From Escherichia coli (GTDB taxonomy: Bacteria > Pseudomonadota > Gammaproteobacteria > Enterobacterales > Enterobacteriaceae): a stretch of 64,000 bases of DNA. The stretch lies in the NCBI RefSeq assembly GCF_003019035.1, contig NZ_CP027447.1; one strand, written 5' to 3'. Below, piece after piece: positions 8,464 through 60,221 of this stretch. Position 1 is the first letter of the stretch, and every line of letters begins with the position of its first letter. The position numbers were made by a program, and so were the translations under genes. The notes below the pieces were generated by a model that saw nothing but the letters and a program-made list of their open reading frames with translations, did no database searches and had not been told where the DNA came from.

Positions 8464-10005
<1,542 letters not shown>

Positions 10006-10090
10006 CCTTAAAGAACTGTGCTTTGCAGTGCTCACACAGATTGTCTGATAGAAAGTGAAAAGCAAGGCGTCTTGCGAAGCAGACTGATAC

Positions 10091-10166
10091 GTCCCCTTCG
10101 TCTAGAGGCCCAGGACACCGCCCTTTCACGGCGGTAACAGGGGTTCGAATCCCCTAGGGGACGCCA
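10091..10166 (+). tRNA. gltU: tRNA-Glu (anticodon UUC), 16S-23S spacer
   Basis: 76 nt cloverleaf sequence GTCCCCTTCGTCTAGAGG...GGGACGCCA. Confidence 0.95.
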
Positions 10167-10359
10167 CTTGCTGGTTTGTGAGTGAAAGTCACCTGCCTTA
10201 ATATCTCAAAACTCATCTTCGGGTGATGTTTGAGATATTTGCTCTTTAAAAATCTGGATCAAGCTGAAAATTGAAACACTGAACAACGAGAGTTGTTCGT
10301 GAGTCTCTCAAATTTTCGCAACACGATGATGAATCGAAAGAAACATCTTCGGGTTGTGA

Positions 10360-13264
<2,905 letters not shown>

Positions 13265-13357
13265 ACAACGCCGAAGATGTTTTGGCGGAAGAGAGAAGAT
13301 TTTCAGCCTGATACAGATTAAATTAACCGGCGACAAGCGGGTTAATAAAACAGAATT

Positions 13358-13477
13358 TGCCTGGCGGCCGTAGCGCGGTGGTCCCACCTGACCCCATGCC
13401 GAACTCAGAAGTGAAACGCCGTAGCGCCGATGGTAGTGTGGGGTCTCCCCATGCGAGAGTAGGGAACTGCCAGGCAT
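13358..13477 (+). rRNA. rrfC: 5S ribosomal RNA
   Basis: TGCCTGGCGGCCGTAGCGCGGTGG...GGGAACTGCCAGGCAT, 120 nt. Confidence 0.96.
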
Positions 13478-13529
13478 CAAATTAAGCAGTAAGCCGGTCA
13501 TAAAACCGGTGGTTGTAAAAGAATTCGGT

Positions 13530-13606
13530 GGAGCGGTAGTTCAGTCGGTTAGAATACCTGCCTGTCACGCAGGGGGTCGCGGGTTCGAGTCCCGTCCGTT
13601 CCGCCA
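13530..13606 (+). tRNA. aspT: tRNA-Asp (anticodon GUC)
   Basis: GGAGCGGTAGTTCAGTCGG...CCGTTCCGCCA, distal to 5S. Confidence 0.95.
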
Positions 13607-13614
13607 CCCTAATT

Positions 13615-13690
13615 AGGGGCGTAGTTCAATTGGTAGAGCACCGGTCTCCAAAACCGGGTGTTGGGAGTTCGAGTCTCTCCGCCCCTGCCA
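13615..13690 (+). tRNA. trpT: tRNA-Trp (anticodon CCA)
   Basis: AGGGGCGTAGTTCAATTGGTAGAGC...CTCCGCCCCTGCCA. Confidence 0.95.
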
Positions 13691-36763: not shown

Positions 36764-36893
36764 AGTGTGGTAGAATATCAGCTTACTATTGCTTTACGAA
36801 AGCGTATCCGGTGAAATAAAGTCAACCTTTAGTTGGTTAATGTTACACCAACAACGAAACCAACACGCCAGGCTTATTCCTGTGGAGTTATAT

Positions 36894-37223
36894 ATGAGCG
36901 ATAAAATTATTCACCTGACTGACGACAGTTTTGACACGGATGTACTCAAAGCGGACGGGGCGATCCTCGTCGATTTCTGGGCAGAGTGGTGCGGTCCGTG
37001 CAAAATGATCGCCCCGATTCTGGATGAAATCGCTGACGAATATCAGGGCAAACTGACCGTTGCAAAACTGAACATCGATCAAAACCCTGGCACTGCGCCG
37101 AAATATGGTATCCGTGGTATCCCGACTCTGCTGCTGTTCAAAAACGGTGAAGTGGCGGCAACCAAAGTGGGCGCACTGTCTAAAGGTCAGTTGAAAGAGT
37201 TCCTCGACGCTAACCTGGCGTAA
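36894..37223 (+). CDS. trxA: thioredoxin 1
   Basis: recalled protein begins [13 protein letters not shown] at the ATG at 36894; WCGPC active site; 109 aa. Confidence 0.97.
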
Positions 37224-53506: not shown

Positions 53507-53583
<77 letters not shown>

Positions 53584-53640
53584 TTTAGTCCCGGCGCTTG
53601 AGCTGCGGTGGTAGTAATACCGCGTAACAAGATTTGTAGT

Positions 53641-53717
53641 GGTGGCTATAGCTCAGTTGGTAGAGCCCTGGATTGTGATTCCAGTTGTCGTGGGTTCGAA
53701 TCCCATTAGCCACCCCA
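53641..53717 (+). tRNA. hisR: tRNA-His (anticodon GUG), with the extra 5' G
   Basis: GGTGGCTATAGCTCAGTTGGTAGAGC...ATTAGCCACCCCA. Confidence 0.94.
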
Positions 53718-53737
53718 TTATTAGAAGTTGTGACAAT

Positions 53738-53824
53738 GCGAAGGTGGCGGAATTGGTAGACGCGCTAGCTTCAGGTGTTAGTGTCCTTACGGACGTGGGG
53801 GTTCAAGTCCCCCCCCTCGCACCA
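53738..53824 (+). tRNA. leuT: tRNA-Leu (anticodon CAG), long variable arm
   Basis: GCGAAGGTGGCGGAATTGGTAGACGC...CCCCCCCTCGCACCA; 87 nt. Confidence 0.94.
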
Positions 53825-53866
53825 CGACTTTAAAGAATTGAACTAAAAATTCAAAAAGCAGTATTT

Positions 53867-53943
53867 CGGCGAGTAGCGCAGCTTGGTAGCGCAACTGGTT
53901 TGGGACCAGTGGGTCGGAGGTTCGAATCCTCTCTCGCCGACCA
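53867..53943 (+). tRNA. proM: tRNA-Pro (anticodon UGG)
   Basis: CGGCGAGTAGCGCAGCTTGGTAGCGC...TCTCGCCGACCA. Confidence 0.94.
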
Positions 53944-55482: not shown

Positions 55483-57138
55483 TTAGTCAGATTTAATCTG
55501 CGCGCGTGGTGGATATTTTTTCAGGATCTCCATATACGCGTGCATTTCGGTCTGTAGCGGTACACCCATCGGAATATGGCGCACGCCGATGGAGTCGCTT
55601 TCCTGCGGATCGGTGTACAGGTTAAACACCGACGATCCCGCCGTTTGCATTACTGTGCCGGTGAATCCACCCTGATACCCGCTCTGGGTATACGCGTACG
55701 GTTGCTGGATCAGGACGTGATACTTGAACTCATCCATACGCACAGCAGAAAGTTTACCGTTGAGGAAGTAGTGCTCGGCCTTACGGTTAGACTGACCATT
55801 TGTTCCCAGGAAGAAAGATGTCTGGTCCACACCATCGATAAAGGTGGTTTTCGGTACTAAATTCGCTACTTTCGCCCCAGGATGCCCCGCCAGATCCAGC
55901 GCCGTAGGGAAGAGATCCGCCAGATCGACAATGCCGTCAGATTTACGCGGTTGGATCATGCCTTTCCAGTAAACGAAGGTTGGCACACGAACGCCGCCTT
56001 CCCATGTAGAACCTTTCGCACCGCGGAACGGCGTGCGACCGTGCGGCGGAACTTCGGCTTCCGGACCGTTATCAGAGGTGAACACAATCAGCGTGTTATC
56101 AAGCTGACCGTTTTTCTCCAGTGCTTTATACAGATTGGCGAAGATATCGTTCATCTCCACCATGCAGTCGCCGTAAGAGGTGCGCGCCGGAGAGCTACCC
56201 GCATATTTCGCATTTGGGTAGTTATCGAAGTGACAGCCGCGAGTGCCGTAGTAGAGGAAGAAAGGCTTATCGCTCTTCGCCATCTTGTCGAGGAACTTAA
56301 CGCCATATTCCATCCAGCGTTGATCCAGGTCTTCCATATATTTCGGCGTAATGTCGGCAATGGCTTCCTGTTCACCGCCGCGCACGGCATGAACGTCATC
56401 TTTGCTGAACGGCAGTTTTTGGATGTATTCAGAACGATCCGGGCTCAGGGCGACTTCCGGGTTGACGTGAACATCACGCCATTCGGTATACATATCGGAT
56501 ACCGAGTTAAAGCCGCGGAAATCATCAAAGCCAACGTTCTGCGGCTGCGACTCTTTGTTTTCCCCCATATGCCATTTCCCGATGGCCTGAGTGACGTAGC
56601 CCTGATCGTGCAGCAACTGCGGCAGAGTGGTTAACCCTTGCAGACCGCCCGGTTGCCCGTACATTGGCGGCATCAGAATGCCGTGGTGGATGGAGTATTG
56701 TCCGGTAAGAATCGTGGCGCGGGTTGGGGAAGAACTCGGTTGAGAATACGCCGAAGTTAAAATCAGCCCCTGGCTGGCAACGGCGTCGATATCTGGTGTA
56801 GGGTTACCCACCGCCACGCCGCCGCCGTTAAAGCCAACATCCATCCAGCCCACATCATCCAGCAAGAAAACAACCACGTTCGGTTTCTTACCGGTTTTTT
56901 TCTCAAGTTCTGCCAGCTTCTGCTGGGTTTCTTTGTCTTGTGCAGGATGCTGCATCACCGGCATCATGTTGTCGGCAATAGTGGTCGCCGGTTTAACCAG
57001 ATACTGGTTTGGGTGATCGTATCCGGCAAAGCCTTTGCGTGCGGTGGCGGTTGACGGGGTATCTGCCGCGTTGGCCATGAGTGGAAGAGCGGCGGCGACA
57101 GCCACAACAAGAAGTTTGGGTGAAAACGAAAATTCCAT
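55483..57138 (-). CDS. aslA: arylsulfatase
   Basis: 551 aa with a signal peptide and the sulfatase signature CxPxR ([11 protein letters not shown]). Confidence 0.93.
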
Positions 57139-57562
57139 GCAAAATGCTCCGGTTTCATGTCGTCAAAATGTTGACGTAATTAAGCATTGATAATTGAGAT
57201 CCCTCTCCCTGACAGGATGATTGCATAAATAATAGTGATGAAAATAAATTATTTATTTATCCAGATAATGAATTGGAAAATCAGGAGAGCGTTTTCAATC
57301 CTACCTCTGGCGCAGGTGATATGTAAGGCGGTGATGTTATATCGCGTTGATTATTGATGCTGTTTTTAGTTTTAACGGCAATTAATATATATGTTATTAA
57401 TTGAATGAATTTTATTATTCATTATATATATGTGTAGAATCGTGCGCAGGAGAAATATTCACTCAGGAAGTTATTACTCAGGAAGCAAAGAGGATTACAG
57501 AATTATCTCATAACAAGTATTAAGGGATGTTATTTCCCAGTTCTCTGTGGCATAATAAACGA

Positions 57563-57759
57563 GTAGATGCTCATTCCATCTCTTATGTTCGCCTTAGTGC
57601 CTCATAAACTCCGGAATGACGCAGAGCCGTTTACGGTGCTTATCGTCCACTGACAGATGTCGCTTATGCCTCATCAGACACCATGGACACAACGTTGAGT
57701 GAAGCACCCACTTGTTGTCATACAGACCTGTTTTAACGCCTGCTCCGTAATAAGAGCAG
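57563..57759 (+). ncRNA. glmZ: small RNA GlmZ
   Basis: sequence from GTAGATGCTCATTCCATCTCTTATGTTCGCC to the terminator AACGCCTGCTC...GAGCAGGCGTTTTTTT matches GlmZ as I recall it; a CATAAT -10 hexamer lies just upstream of the G at 57563. Confidence 0.85.
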
Positions 57760-57816
57760 GCGTTTTTTTATGTATCAGAAAGGTCCCGGAGGTGCTTGCC
57801 TCCGGGTGAGAAAGAA

Positions 57817-59013
57817 CTACTGTGGCGGGTTGTTCTGCAACGTTAACATCAAACCGTCGCGGCGCATCGCTGCAGCTTCTTCTGGTTTGTGCAGTCTGTC
57901 CAGCGCGTCGGCAAGCCATGCGTAATCGTAGGCGTCCGGACGTTGTTTCAGCGCCGCGCGGAAGGCGAGCGATGCTTCCTGCCATTCGCCGTGCTTCATC
58001 AGCGACTGACCCAGTGTGCTCCACAACAGCGGGCGATCGCCCACGTTTTTGATCTGTTGGCGCAGCACTTTTTCCAGCTGTTCCGGGTTATTGGTTTTCA
58101 GACGCGGGATCGGCAGCAGCAGGCGATCGTCATACTGGCGTTTCAGGCCGTCGATGATAATTTGCTGGGCAGTATCATGATCGTCACATTCAATAAGATG
58201 TTCCGCCATTGCCACCTGCAACGCCACCTGATGACGCGTTTTCCGGCTTTGGTTTTTCCACCAGTTACGCAAACCTTCGCTACCGTTATCGGCACGCGCC
58301 TGATCCATCAGGCCAATCCATGCCTGTTGTTCCAGCATTGCACGATGTTCTTCATCGCCAACGTGGGCTTTCGCCATTGATGGGATGATATCCAGCAGCG
58401 AACTCCATGCACCAGTGCGGATATACGCCTGTTCCGCCAGACGTAATACTTCCGGATGGCGTGGCGTAACTTCCAGCAGCTTATCAACGCCGTGACGTGC
58501 TGCATGGTTTTCATTACGGGCCAGTTGCAGACGTACACGGGTGATTTCTACCGGAATTGTGTCGTTGCCGGCCAGCTCCGCTGCGCGTTCCAGATGTTGG
58601 TTGGCGCGTGCTTCATCACCGCGTTGTTGCGCGGCTTCGGCAGCCAGCAGATAGTTCACCACCGGTTGTTCAGCGTGATCGGCATTTTTCGCCATCAGCT
58701 TTTCAACTTGCTGATAATCGCCTTCCGCTAGTTTCAGCAGCGCCTGTTCGGTCTGCTTACGGGCACGGCGACGCTTACGTCCGACAAACCACCCACGGGT
58801 GTGCGCGCCAGTGCGGAAGATCCGCCGCAGTAGCCACTCAATGGCAAACAGCACTACCATCGCCAGAATCAAAATAATCGCCAGGCCCGTGACGCTGGTT
58901 TCGATATTGTAGTTGTCGGTCTGAATCAATACGTAACCCTGATGACCGGCAATCATCGGGCCAACCACGATCCCCGCAATCAGCAAAACAAAGAGCAATA
59001 ACACTTTTAGCAT
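57817..59013 (-). CDS. hemY: protoheme IX biogenesis protein (TPR-like)
   Basis: 398 aa; N-terminal transmembrane segments. Confidence 0.93.
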   Translation of the reverse strand: MLKVLLLFVLLIAGIVVGPMIAGHQGYVLIQTDNYNIETSVTGLAIILILAMVVLFAIEWLLRRIFRTGAHTRGWFVGRKRRRARKQTEQALLKLAEGDYQQVEKLMAKNADHAEQPVVNYLLAAEAAQQRGDEARANQHLERAAELAGNDTIPVEITRVRLQLARNENHAARHGVDKLLEVTPRHPEVLRLAEQAYIRTGAWSSLLDIIPSMAKAHVGDEEHRAMLEQQAWIGLMDQARADNGSEGLRNWWKNQSRKTRHQVALQVAMAEHLIECDDHDTAQQIIIDGLKRQYDDRLLLPIPRLKTNNPEQLEKVLRQQIKNVGDRPLLWSTLGQSLMKHGEWQEASLAFRAALKQRPDAYDYAWLADALDRLHKPEEAAAMRRDGLMLTLQNNPPQ

Positions 59014-59015
59014 GG

Positions 59016-60221
59016 TTATTCTCCTTGCGGCGCGGCTGCCGGAGTATCAGCTTGCGGTGCAGGTGCAGGTGCAGGTGCAGGTGCAGGTGCAGGTTTAGCT
59101 TCCGTTGTCCCTGCTGCCGGTTGTGCCAGCAGGTTACGCACGCGGGTCTGCATCAGTTTTTCCAGCATCGCCTGGCTTTGCAGGGTTTCCGGGAGATCCA
59201 TCGAGATATTTTGCTGGCTTAACTGGTCCACCTCGTCGAGGAACGCTTTGGTGGTGGCATCATCAGTATCGTAGTAAGCACGTACCCAGGTGGAGACATT
59301 CTCCAGCGCCTGGCGATAAGTCTCTTCCTGATGACGCGGTACAGCTTGTGCAGCGACCAGCAGGCGAGAGCGAATATTTTCGCGCAGATAGATATCCTGA
59401 TTTGGCGCTAACAGCGGTACGGCGGTGTCATCACGACGGCGAATCGTAATGAAGTTGTCCATAAAGTTCTGCCAGCTTTTTTGCAGATTGATACGCCATT
59501 CGCTGATGGAACTGGAAAGCTCTTCACCGTCGGAATCCATCGGCGAACCATCGCTGTCATTATCAGCCAGACGCAGGTTATCTACCTGATTTGAAAGCTG
59601 ATTAAGCTTAAGGATAATGCCGTCATAATCCACCTGCGATACCGCAGAAAGGCTGGCGATATCATCGGTAATTGCCCGGCGAACGGTAATCAGACTCGGG
59701 TCATTCATATCCGCCAGGCTGGCGTCTGCACTTTTCAGCAACGCTGCAGCGGTCGTGACGTCCTGATCGCTCCACAGCTTCCGTCCGGCGAGTTTCACCA
59801 GGAAATCAGCCTGAGCCAGCAGCCAGGTTTTAGCATCGCTGCCGGAAATAGTCGCGACCTTTTGTTGGACTTCATCCAGCTGTTTTGCCAGCGTTTCTTG
59901 CTGACGATTCGCCTGCTCAAGCTGTACAGCTTGTTGCTTGATAATGCCTTCCAGCTCAGCTTTTTGGCTCTCCTGGGCTTTTTGCAGTGCCGTCAGTTGA
60001 TTAGCCAGGGCATCGCTGGTGGCAGTCTGATTGACGGCCTGTTGTTTACCCCAGCCATACAAACCGACGCCCGCCGCCAGAGCAATAGCGATAGCCACCG
60101 CGCTGAGAATCAATGCGGTATTGTTCTTACTCTTTTTTTCTGTTGCGACAGGTTGTGACGTGGTGTCCACGGCCTCCCTGGTCTCTTCAACCACGGCGGA
60201 GGTTTTTTCTTGTTCCGTCAT
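59016..60221 (-). CDS. hemX: HemX, membrane protein with coiled-coil region and a C-terminal Pro-Ala repeat
   Basis: 401 aa; C-terminus [26 protein letters not shown]. Confidence 0.9.
59056..59095. repeat. hexanucleotide tandem repeat, 6 units of GGTGCA on the plus strand, encoding (PA)6 in hemX
   Basis: TGCGGTGCAGGTGCAGGTGCAGGTGCAGGTGCAGGTGCAGGTTT read directly. Confidence 0.9.

What the first reader, a model, noticed from the sequence alone, without database searches (positions are those of the whole stretch)
57563..57759. GlmZ sRNA between aslA and hemY, invisible to an ORF track
The region contains no plausible ORF but matches the GlmZ small RNA, from the 5' GTAGATGCTCATTCC to the GC-rich terminator hairpin followed by seven T. 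GlmZ activates glmS translation and is controlled by RapZ and GlrR. It is a known element, listed as a finding because it would be missed by protein-centred annotation.
Basis: established knowledge. Interest (0 to 1): 0.3.

Follow-up and report, generated by a model that had tools for sequence, protein, structure and literature searches.

The report
Known GlmZ small RNA gene

Summary
The finding is real and correctly identified. Window 57563-57769 (+) is a full-length match to Rfam GlmZ_SraJ (218.4 bits, gathering score 60, E 3.4e-56). It is 207/207 identical to E. coli K-12 glmZ (b4456) and lies between aslA and hemY as stated. There are two corrections. (2) "Controlled by GlrR" holds only indirectly in Escherichia. 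The window has no sigma-54 promoter and no GlrR site upstream, whereas 49 of 59 orthologs from other Enterobacterales have both. Published experiments show that E. coli glmZ uses one constitutive sigma-70 promoter that GlrR does not bind. GlrR acts on the paralog GlmY, which protects GlmZ by sequestering RapZ. Independent support: compensatory base-pair changes in SL2 and the terminator across 62 sequences; a 26-nt single-stranded region with the published 15-bp complementarity to the glmS leader; no differences from K-12 in 207 nt against 29 in 471 nt of flanking spacer; and hemY as convergent neighbour in 50 of 52 orthologous loci. RefSeq pipeline records annotate nothing here, so the "invisible to an ORF track" remark holds. 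Already known; low interest.

The parts
57523..57562 (+). Minimal sigma-70 promoter of glmZ (-40 to -1). The -10 hexamer CATAAT is at 57551-57556, preceded by TG at 57548-57549 (extended -10). The candidate -35 hexamer ATGTTA is at 57527-57532 (3 of 6 matches, 18-nt spacer).
   Evidence: Sequence. Positions -22 to -1 are identical to K-12; the differences are at -23, -24 (in the spacer) and -44. PMC3045617 shows that -40 to +32 is sufficient and that -35 and -10 mutations abolish expression. The exact -35 hexamer is my inference: the paper says three bases match TTGACA, but its figure is not held. The simple sigma-70 consensus scan did not call this weak promoter.
57563..57769 (+). Full-length glmZ primary transcript, 207 nt.
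   Evidence: Rfam RF00083, 218.4 bits, E 3.4e-56, full model. 207/207 identical to K-12. The start equals the start of b4456 in NC_000913.3. The length of 207 nt is given in PMC4152352.
57569..57622 (+). Stem-loop 1 (nt 7-60): outer helix nt 7-15 with 51-60, inner helix nt 21-25 with 41-45. Bound by one RapZ C-terminal-domain dimer.
   Evidence: Thermodynamic fold. On 62 sequences the two helices are 100% and 98% paired, with a U:A to C:G switch in 13 sequences. The Rfam register for the inner part fits worse, at 29% and 62%. RapZ contact is from PMC9841335.
57635..57708 (+). Stem-loop 2 (nt 73-146) with a lateral bulge. It is the module recognised jointly by RapZ and RNase E and decides whether the RNA is cleaved.
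   Evidence: Three helices are 100%, 92.9% and 100% paired, and 9 pairs show compensatory changes. The function is from PMC4737144 and PMC9841335.
57709..57734 (+). Single-stranded region (nt 147-172, 26 nt). It holds the glmS-pairing site (57712-57719 UUGUUGUC and 57725-57731 GACCUGU), the RNase E processing site near nt 151 (about 57713) and an Hfq contact.
   Evidence: The length of 26 nt equals the published value. The 15-bp duplex with K-12 glmS leader -40..-22 has dG -19.2. GUUGUC and GACCUG are invariant or nearly so across 62 sequences, while the 5 nt between them vary. The processing position of about 151 is from PMC4152352.
57735..57769 (+). Stem-loop 3, the intrinsic terminator (stem 57735-57764), with a seven-U tail (57763-57769). 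The oligo(U) tail is also an Hfq-binding element.
   Evidence: Terminator scan. dG -19.4. 8 of 11 pairs show compensatory changes. The Hfq role is from PMC4737144.
55483..57138 (-). aslA (putative arylsulfatase), the upstream neighbour. It is context only, not part of the system.
   Evidence: ORF list, K-12 annotation, sulfatase family matches. aslA is upstream of glmZ in only 3 of 42 orthologous loci.
57817..59013 (-). hemY, the convergent downstream neighbour. It is the conserved synteny marker for glmZ.
   Evidence: NF008017 HemY, 830 bits. hemY is convergent downstream in 50 of 52 orthologous loci. The same is reported in PMC3045617.

Best explanation
Window 57563-57769 (+) is the glmZ gene of an Escherichia coli strain. 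It encodes the 207-nt trans-acting small RNA GlmZ (also called SraJ or RyiA). It is transcribed from a weak, constitutive sigma-70 promoter (extended -10 TGgCATAAT) and ends at an intrinsic terminator. The RNA folds into SL1, SL2, a 26-nt single-stranded region and the terminator SL3. With the help of Hfq, the single-stranded region pairs through two short helices (8 + 7 bp) with the glmS leader about 22-40 nt upstream of the start codon. This opens an inhibitory hairpin, so glmS is translated and its mRNA stabilised, which raises glucosamine-6-phosphate synthase. Control is at the level of RNA decay, not transcription. When glucosamine-6-phosphate is plentiful, the adaptor RapZ binds SL1 and SL2 and presents the single-stranded region to RNase E. 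RNase E cuts near nt 151 and removes the pairing site. When the metabolite is scarce, the paralog GlmY accumulates and sequesters RapZ, which spares GlmZ. GlrR/sigma-54 drives glmY, not glmZ, in Escherichia. Shown here: identity, extent, structure conservation, target complementarity, promoter type and synteny. Inferred from the literature, on the strength of 100% identity to the molecule studied: Hfq dependence, RapZ/RNase E cleavage and the metabolite response.
For: Rfam GlmZ_SraJ hit, 218.4 bits against 60, E 3.4e-56, full length. 207/207 identity to K-12, and at least 99% identity in 5424 of 5426 complete E. coli genomes. The start coincides with b4456. No differences from K-12 in 207 nt against 29 in 471 nt of flanking spacer, Fisher p 3.4e-5. 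The upstream spacer is at least 99% identical to the window in only 325 genomes and 90-95% in 3477. Covariation on 62 Enterobacterales sequences: 94.3% of cells paired, 22 pairs with compensatory change, 0 of 500 shuffles as high, and slid controls at 31-44% paired (Rfam structure). The single-stranded region is 26 nt and forms the 15-bp duplex with glmS leader -40..-22, matching the published 15-nt site and 26-nt length. The pairing hexamers are invariant or nearly so in 62 sequences. There is no sigma-54 element or GlrR site in the window, while 49 of 59 orthologs have both; this agrees with the experiments in PMC3045617. hemY is convergent downstream in 50 of 52 loci. The mechanism is taken from PMC4152352, PMC4737144 and PMC9841335.
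Against: Nothing contradicts the identification. There are weak points. The duplex-energy test against shuffled single-stranded regions is only modest (96 of 2000 shuffles as good, z -1.8). It also used the K-12 glmS leader, because the strain's own glmS lies outside the window. The simple sigma-70 scan did not call the promoter, which has a poor -35. The promoter spacer differs from K-12 at -24/-23, with unknown effect. Expression, processing and RapZ/Hfq binding were not and cannot be tested here. The ortholog set was retrieved with a 5'-end pattern, so conservation of nt 1-25 is partly imposed by that pattern.
Confidence: 0.98

Rival explanations
1. It is the paralogous decoy sRNA GlmY (or a GlmY-like RapZ sponge) rather than the base-pairing GlmZ.
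For: GlmY and GlmZ are homologous and belong to the same Rfam clan, CL00011. The window RNA shares 111 of 207 positions with K-12 GlmY, 90 of them in the SL1-SL2 body.
Against: Within the clan the best model is GlmZ_SraJ. As a control, K-12 glmY is assigned to RF00128 GlmY_tke1. The single-stranded region is 26 nt and carries the glmS-complementary UUGUUGUC...GACCUG; GlmY's is 12 nt with no such complementarity. The neighbour is hemY, not glrK/purL. The sequence is 100% identical to b4456 glmZ.
Confidence: 0.005
2. It is a glmZ of the sigma-54/GlrR-dependent class (as in Yersinia or Salmonella), so that GlrR controls it directly.
For: Of 59 orthologs, 51 carry TGGCA(C/T)-N5-(G/A)TGCA ending at -12, and 51 carry GlrR palindromes at fixed positions. 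PMC3045617 shows this class is GlrR-activated. The window keeps a TGGCA string at 57548-57552.
Against: In the window the best sigma-54 match within -40..-1 has 5 mismatches, and there is no -24 element at -27..-22. The TGGCA string aligns with the orthologs' -12 GTGCA, not with the -24 box. No TGTC-N10-GACA with one mismatch or fewer occurs in the 424-nt spacer. [quoted passage not shown]
Confidence: 0.01
3. The conserved region encodes a small protein, or is only the terminator/3' region of a flanking gene, rather than an independent RNA gene.
For: Short ORFs of 26-37 aa and a 116-aa GTG ORF overlap the region.
Against: Gap runs in the ortholog alignment are mostly not multiples of three (641 of 766). 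The substitutions are compensatory in helices. The 116-aa ORF has no Pfam match and lies mostly over hemY in another frame. Both neighbours are on the opposite strand, and hemY has its own hairpin at 57785-57806. The region has its own promoter and terminator.
Confidence: 0.005

Closest known systems
E. coli K-12 GlmZ (SraJ / RyiA, b4456; Rfam RF00083)
   Same: The 207-nt sequence is identical, and so are the transcription start, the core promoter from -22 to -1, the terminator, and the aslA and hemY neighbours.
   Different: The RNA itself does not differ. The promoter spacer differs at -24/-23 (AG here, GA in K-12) and at -44, and the upstream spacer is about 6% divergent. The K-12 RefSeq record annotates only 172 nt, stopping just before the terminator.
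GlmY (Rfam RF00128), the paralogous RapZ decoy
   Same: The SL1 and SL2 body is homologous (90 of 146 positions identical), both bind RapZ, both end in a terminator with oligo(U), and both belong to one Rfam clan.
   Different: GlmY has a 12-nt single-stranded region with no glmS complementarity, is not cleaved by RapZ/RNase E, does not bind Hfq specifically, lies next to glrK, and has a sigma-54/GlrR promoter.
GlmZ of Yersinia, Salmonella, Enterobacter, Serratia and others (sigma-54/GlrR-driven glmZ)
   Same: The RNA architecture, the conserved GUUGUC...GACCUG pairing site and the convergent hemY neighbour are shared.
   Different: Those genes have a sigma-54 promoter ending at -12 and 2-3 GlrR sites near -150 to -250. 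The window, a second E. coli and E. albertii have neither and rely on the sigma-70 -10 element alone (PMC3045617).
glmS ribozyme of Gram-positive bacteria
   Same: It has the same physiological purpose: feedback control of GlmS synthesis by glucosamine-6-phosphate at the RNA level (PMC4152352).
   Different: It is a cis-acting, self-cleaving element in the mRNA leader. It is neither a trans-acting sRNA nor homologous to GlmZ.

Membership tests
GlmZ (Rfam RF00083 GlmZ_SraJ) | Covariance-model score above the curated gathering score, over the full model | tested here: met
   218.4 bits against 60, E 3.4e-56, model 1-214/214, window 57563-57769 +.
GlmZ (Rfam RF00083 GlmZ_SraJ) | Three stem-loops (SL1, SL2, terminator SL3 with oligo-U) supported by covariation | tested here: met
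   On 62 sequences, 94.3% of cells are paired, 22 pairs show compensatory change, and 0 of 500 shuffles reach that level. The terminator has seven U. The apical 3-bp helix of SL1 is not supported (48%).
GlmZ (Rfam RF00083 GlmZ_SraJ) | A 26-nt single-stranded region between SL2 and SL3 with a ~15-nt site complementary to the glmS leader | tested here: met
   The region is nt 147-172, which is 26 nt. It forms 8 + 7 bp with K-12 glmS -40..-22, dG -19.2, matching the published site. The shuffle control is only modest (96 of 2000). The strain's own glmS is not in the window.
GlmZ (Rfam RF00083 GlmZ_SraJ) | Location convergent to the hemCDXY operon | tested here: met
   hemY is at 57817-59013 (-), 47 nt beyond the glmZ 3' end. 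The same arrangement holds in 50 of 52 orthologous loci.
GlmZ (Rfam RF00083 GlmZ_SraJ) | Identity to the experimentally characterised gene b4456 | tested here: met
   207/207 identical, with the same start coordinate.
GlmZ (Rfam RF00083 GlmZ_SraJ) | RapZ-dependent cleavage by RNase E near nt 151, and Hfq-dependent activation of glmS translation | not testable with these tools
   Inferred from 100% identity to the RNA used in PMC4737144 and PMC9841335. rapZ, hfq, rne, glmY and glmS are not in the window.
GlmY (Rfam RF00128) | Best-scoring clan member is GlmY; short single-stranded region without glmS complementarity; located upstream of glrK | tested here: not met
   Rfam keeps GlmZ as the best member of clan CL00011. 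The K-12 glmY control goes to RF00128. The single-stranded region is 26 nt and carries the pairing site. The neighbours are aslA and hemY.
Sigma-54/GlrR-dependent glmZ promoter class | Sigma-54 -24/-12 element ending at -12 | tested here: not met
   The best match within -40..-1 has 5 mismatches, against 2 or fewer in 51 of 59 orthologs.
Sigma-54/GlrR-dependent glmZ promoter class | GlrR binding sites TGTC-N10-GACA upstream of the promoter | tested here: not met
   None with one mismatch or fewer in 57139-57562. 51 of 59 orthologs have at least one, typically at about -246, -214 and -151.
Sigma-70-only glmZ promoter class (Escherichia/Klebsiella type, PMC3045617) | Functional -10 and -35 within -40..-1, and no upstream activating sequence | tested here: met
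   CATAAT at -12..-7 with TG at -15/-14, and -22..-1 identical to the K-12 promoter that was dissected experimentally. Promoter activity in this strain was not measured.

The most novel reading that the evidence does not exclude
The only mildly novel reading left open is that this lineage's promoter variant changes the constitutive level of GlmZ relative to K-12. The variant is AG instead of GA at -24/-23 in the spacer, a change at -44, and a spacer about 6% divergent further upstream. A changed GlmZ level would shift the set-point of the GlmY/GlmZ/RapZ circuit in about 325 sequenced E. coli genomes that share this spacer. The RNA itself is identical to the known one, so no new mechanism is possible at the RNA level.
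Probability: 0.05. Interest if true: 0.12.

Novelty: already known. Interest (0 to 1): 0.07.

Why it matters
GlmZ is a textbook case of an sRNA whose activity is set by regulated decay (RapZ adaptor, RNase E, GlmY decoy), and it controls the first committed step of cell-envelope synthesis. Finding it here adds nothing new biologically. The practical points concern annotation. Pipeline-annotated RefSeq E. coli genomes leave this 678-nt gap empty. The curated K-12 record gives a 172-nt feature that omits the terminator. The correct extent is 57563-57769. Anyone reasoning about its regulation should also note that direct GlrR/sigma-54 control of glmZ, present in most Enterobacterales, is absent in Escherichia.

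Tried and rejected
(1) A duplex fold of full-length GlmZ against the whole glmU-glmS spacer gave a meaningless end-to-end duplex that scored worse than shuffles, because intramolecular structure is ignored. I replaced it with a test of the single-stranded region only. That test recovers the published site but is statistically modest. (2) A window-wide search for the sigma-54 consensus with 3 mismatches was uninformative: 305 hits against 338 expected. I replaced it with a position-restricted comparison with orthologs. (3) The Rfam consensus for inner SL1, projected onto my MAFFT alignment, fitted poorly (29% and 62% paired). The thermodynamic register fitted better. That register was derived from the window sequence itself, so the percentage paired is biased in its favour. 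The U:A to C:G switch in 13 species is the independent part of that evidence. I filtered these by BLAST coverage. Two true loci (L095, L118) were dropped because no terminator lay within the fetched stretch. (5) The original Urban & Vogel 2008 paper could not be retrieved, so the pairing details rest on the review and on later primary papers. (6) The coding rival was checked and rejected.

Full report
OBSERVATION. The stretch reads exactly as described. GTAGATGCTCATTCC begins at 57563. A G+C-rich hairpin has an 11-bp stem (57735-57745 pairing with 57754-57764) and an 8-nt loop, and it runs into seven T at 57763-57769. The correct interval is 57563-57769, which is 207 nt. Inside it there are only ORFs of 37 aa or fewer, plus a 116-aa GTG ORF on the minus strand (57674-58024). 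That ORF lies mostly over the 3' end of hemY in another frame and has no Pfam match.

IDENTITY. A scan of the whole window against Rfam 15 gives a full-length hit to RF00083 GlmZ_SraJ at 57563-57769 (+). The score is 218.4 bits against a gathering score of 60, E is 3.4e-56, and model positions 1-214 of 214 are matched. The 207 nt are 100% identical to E. coli K-12. They are at least 99% identical in 5424 of 5426 complete E. coli genomes. In NC_000913.3 the same start base is the start of ncRNA glmZ (b4456), flanked by aslA and hemY. In the window, aslA is 55483-57138 (-), hemY is 57817-59013 (-; NF008017, 830 bits) and hemX is 59016-60221 (-). The window therefore comes from an Escherichia coli chromosome, though not K-12 itself. 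Its aslA-glmZ spacer differs from K-12 at 26 of 424 positions and is 100% identical to strain SCU-301.

SELECTION ON THE RNA. Against K-12 there are no differences in the 207 nt of glmZ but 29 in the 471 nt of flanking intergenic DNA (Fisher p 3.4e-5). Species-wide, glmZ is at least 99% identical in every genome that has it. The adjacent 424-nt spacer is at least 99% identical to the window in only 325 genomes and 90-95% in 3477. The nearest upstream differences from K-12 are at -23, -24 and -44, so the core promoter from -22 to -1 is also unchanged.

STRUCTURE. I retrieved orthologs with one pattern scan of GTDB species genomes, using a pattern from the 5' end. I filtered out chance hits and trimmed each sequence to its terminator. 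I then aligned 61 distinct orthologs, from Escherichia to Yersinia, Photorhabdus, Providencia and Morganella, with the window copy. With the Rfam consensus structure, 88.7% of cells pair and 17 pairs show compensatory change. None of 500 shuffles reaches the observed covariation score, and sliding the 3' partners by 1-3 columns drops pairing to 34-44%. SL2 (three helices at 100%, 92.9% and 100% paired, 9 compensatory pairs) and the terminator (8 of 11 pairs compensatory) are very well supported. The inner part of SL1 as drawn by Rfam fits poorly on this alignment (29% and 62%). The register of the thermodynamic fold (nt 7-15 with 51-60 and nt 21-25 with 41-45) fits at 100% and 98%, with a U:A to C:G switch in 13 species. 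This raises the totals to 94.3% paired and 22 compensatory pairs. There are two caveats. The alternative register was derived from the window sequence itself. The search pattern also fixed much of nt 1-25. Gap runs in the alignment are mostly not multiples of three (641 of 766), as expected for non-coding RNA.

TARGET SITE. SL2 ends at nt 146 and the terminator begins at nt 173, which leaves a single-stranded region of exactly 26 nt (57709-57734). This is the length published for GlmZ; GlmY has 12 nt (PMC4737144). Tested against the K-12 glmU-glmS spacer, this region forms two helices. UUGUUGUC (nt 150-157) pairs with GACAACGA, and GACCUGU (nt 163-169) pairs with ACAGGUU. Together they give 15 bp at -40..-22 of glmS, with dG -19.2 kcal/mol. 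[quoted passage not shown] The energy alone is not compelling, since 96 of 2000 shuffles do as well. Conservation adds weight. GUUGUC (nt 152-157) and GACCUG (nt 163-168) are invariant or nearly so in 62 sequences, while the five nucleotides between them vary and carry indels. That is the pattern expected for two pairing helices separated by an internal loop. The strain's own glmS lies outside the window.

PROMOTER, AND THE GlrR CLAIM. Upstream of +1 the window has CATAAT at -12..-7 preceded by TG at -15/-14. A poor -35 candidate, ATGTTA, sits 18 nt further upstream (my reading). The generic sigma-70 scan did not call it. No TGTC-N10-GACA with one mismatch or fewer occurs in the 424-nt spacer. 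The best sigma-54 match within -40..-1 has 5 mismatches. By contrast, 51 of 59 orthologs with enough upstream sequence carry TGGCA(C/T)-N5-(G/A)TGCA ending at -12 (at -13 in two of them). Also, 51 of 59 carry GlrR palindromes, typically at about -246, -214 and -151, and 49 have both. The second E. coli and E. albertii resemble the window. This reproduces the classification in PMC3045617. [quoted passage not shown] It needs only -40..+32 and is abolished by -35 or -10 mutations. "Controlled by GlrR" is therefore true here only through GlmY.

MECHANISM. The steps are taken from the literature and apply because the RNA is identical. GlmZ, aided by Hfq, pairs with the glmS leader and relieves an inhibitory hairpin, which activates translation and stabilises the mRNA. 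RapZ binds SL1 and SL2 and presents the single-stranded region to RNase E. RNase E cuts near nt 151 and removes the pairing site. SL2 is the decisive recognition module, and SL3 docks on RNase E. Hfq binds the single-stranded region and the oligo(U) tail and opposes cleavage. GlmY accumulates when glucosamine-6-phosphate is low and sequesters RapZ (PMC4152352, PMC4737144, PMC9841335). None of these biochemical steps can be tested with sequence tools.

RIVALS. GlmY is excluded. As a control, K-12 glmY is assigned to RF00128. It shares 111 of 207 positions with the window RNA, 90 of them in SL1-SL2, and lacks the pairing site. It also lies next to glrK. A sigma-54/GlrR-type glmZ is excluded by the promoter analysis. 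A coding or flanking-gene explanation is excluded by the covariation, the indel pattern, the opposite-strand neighbours, and the region's own promoter and terminator.

SYNTENY. hemY is the convergent downstream neighbour in 50 of 52 orthologous loci with enough sequence. aslA is upstream in only 3 of 42: Escherichia coli, E. albertii and Pseudocitrobacter. This matches the published statement that the upstream side is variable.

ANNOTATION. None of the 12 sampled RefSeq records has a feature under the match. In SCU-301 the whole aslA-hemY gap is empty. The curated K-12 record has the gene but gives it 172 nt, ending at the last base before the terminator, whereas the primary transcript is 207 nt.

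VERDICT. This is a real, correctly identified and thoroughly known element. There are two corrections: the end coordinate (57769, not 57759), and GlrR control, which is indirect in Escherichia. Novelty: already known. Interest: low.

Noticed in passing
L001 2933-3104 (NC_000913.3 3986432-3986603), equivalent to window 57563-57734: The curated K-12 RefSeq record annotates glmZ as 172 nt, ending exactly at the last base of the single-stranded region and leaving out the terminator. The literature and the Rfam model give 207 nt.
   Followed up: partly
window 57139-57816; L123 2501-3178: Pipeline-annotated RefSeq E. coli genomes carry no feature at glmZ. This holds for 12 of 12 sampled records and for the whole aslA-hemY gap of strain SCU-301, although the sequence is present at 99% identity or more in 5424 of 5426 genomes.
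   Followed up: partly
window 57578-57610 (GlmZ nt 16-48); alignment A2 columns 19-59: The Rfam RF00083 consensus pairing for the inner part of SL1 fits the 62-sequence alignment poorly (29% and 62% paired). A shifted register (nt 21-25 with 41-45) is 98% paired. The Rfam structure annotation may be suboptimal there, or my MAFFT alignment may distort it.
   Followed up: partly
L082, L039, L009, L019, L063 (Citrobacter youngae, Citrobacter sp. Cu233, C. werkmanii, Citrobacter sp. FP75, Pseudocitrobacter faecalis), 300 nt upstream of glmZ: These species show no GlrR TGTC-N10-GACA site, and most have a degraded sigma-54 element upstream of glmZ, whereas Citrobacter sp. R56 (L025) keeps both. Loss of direct GlrR control of glmZ may therefore have happened within Citrobacter as well as in Escherichia.
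   Followed up: no
window 57461-57470 and 57476-57485: There is a direct repeat ACTCAGGAAG, two copies 5 nt apart, at about -102 to -78 upstream of glmZ. It is also present in K-12. Published deletions show that sequence upstream of -40 is dispensable for glmZ expression, so its role, if any, is unknown.
   Followed up: no
window 57139-57562: The aslA-glmZ spacer is unusually variable within E. coli: at least 99% identical to the window in only 325 genomes and 90-95% in 3477. It contains a very A+T-rich block at about 57340-57440, with minus-strand promoter-like hexamers at 57438-57409 that could serve aslA.
   Followed up: no
window 57785-57806 (-): A strong hairpin (CCCGGAGG...CCUCCGGG, dG -16.9) lies just after the hemY stop codon on the minus strand. 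It is only 15 nt from the 3' end of the convergent glmZ, and it has a weak U tail. It is probably the hemCDXY terminator.
   Followed up: partly
window 59016-60221 (-): hemX is 401 aa here but 393 aa in K-12 (1182-nt CDS), so there is a length polymorphism in this gene.
   Followed up: no
window 16907-17196 (+), 36824-36923 (+), 10244-10352 (+): There are other Rfam hits above the gathering score: Rev39_5p_UTR (157 bits), the TrxA 5' UTR thermometer (78.8 bits) and StyR-44 (122.9 bits), the last lying just upstream of the 23S rRNA inside the rRNA operon.
   Followed up: no
window 8464-13687 and 53507-53940: The window holds a complete rRNA operon: 16S, a spacer tRNA, 23S, 5S and two distal tRNAs. 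A separate cluster of four tRNA genes lies about 3.6 kb upstream of glmZ.
   Followed up: no
E. coli genome search: One glmZ copy was found on a plasmid record, at least one genome has two copies, and 2 of 5426 complete genomes gave no match at all.
   Followed up: no
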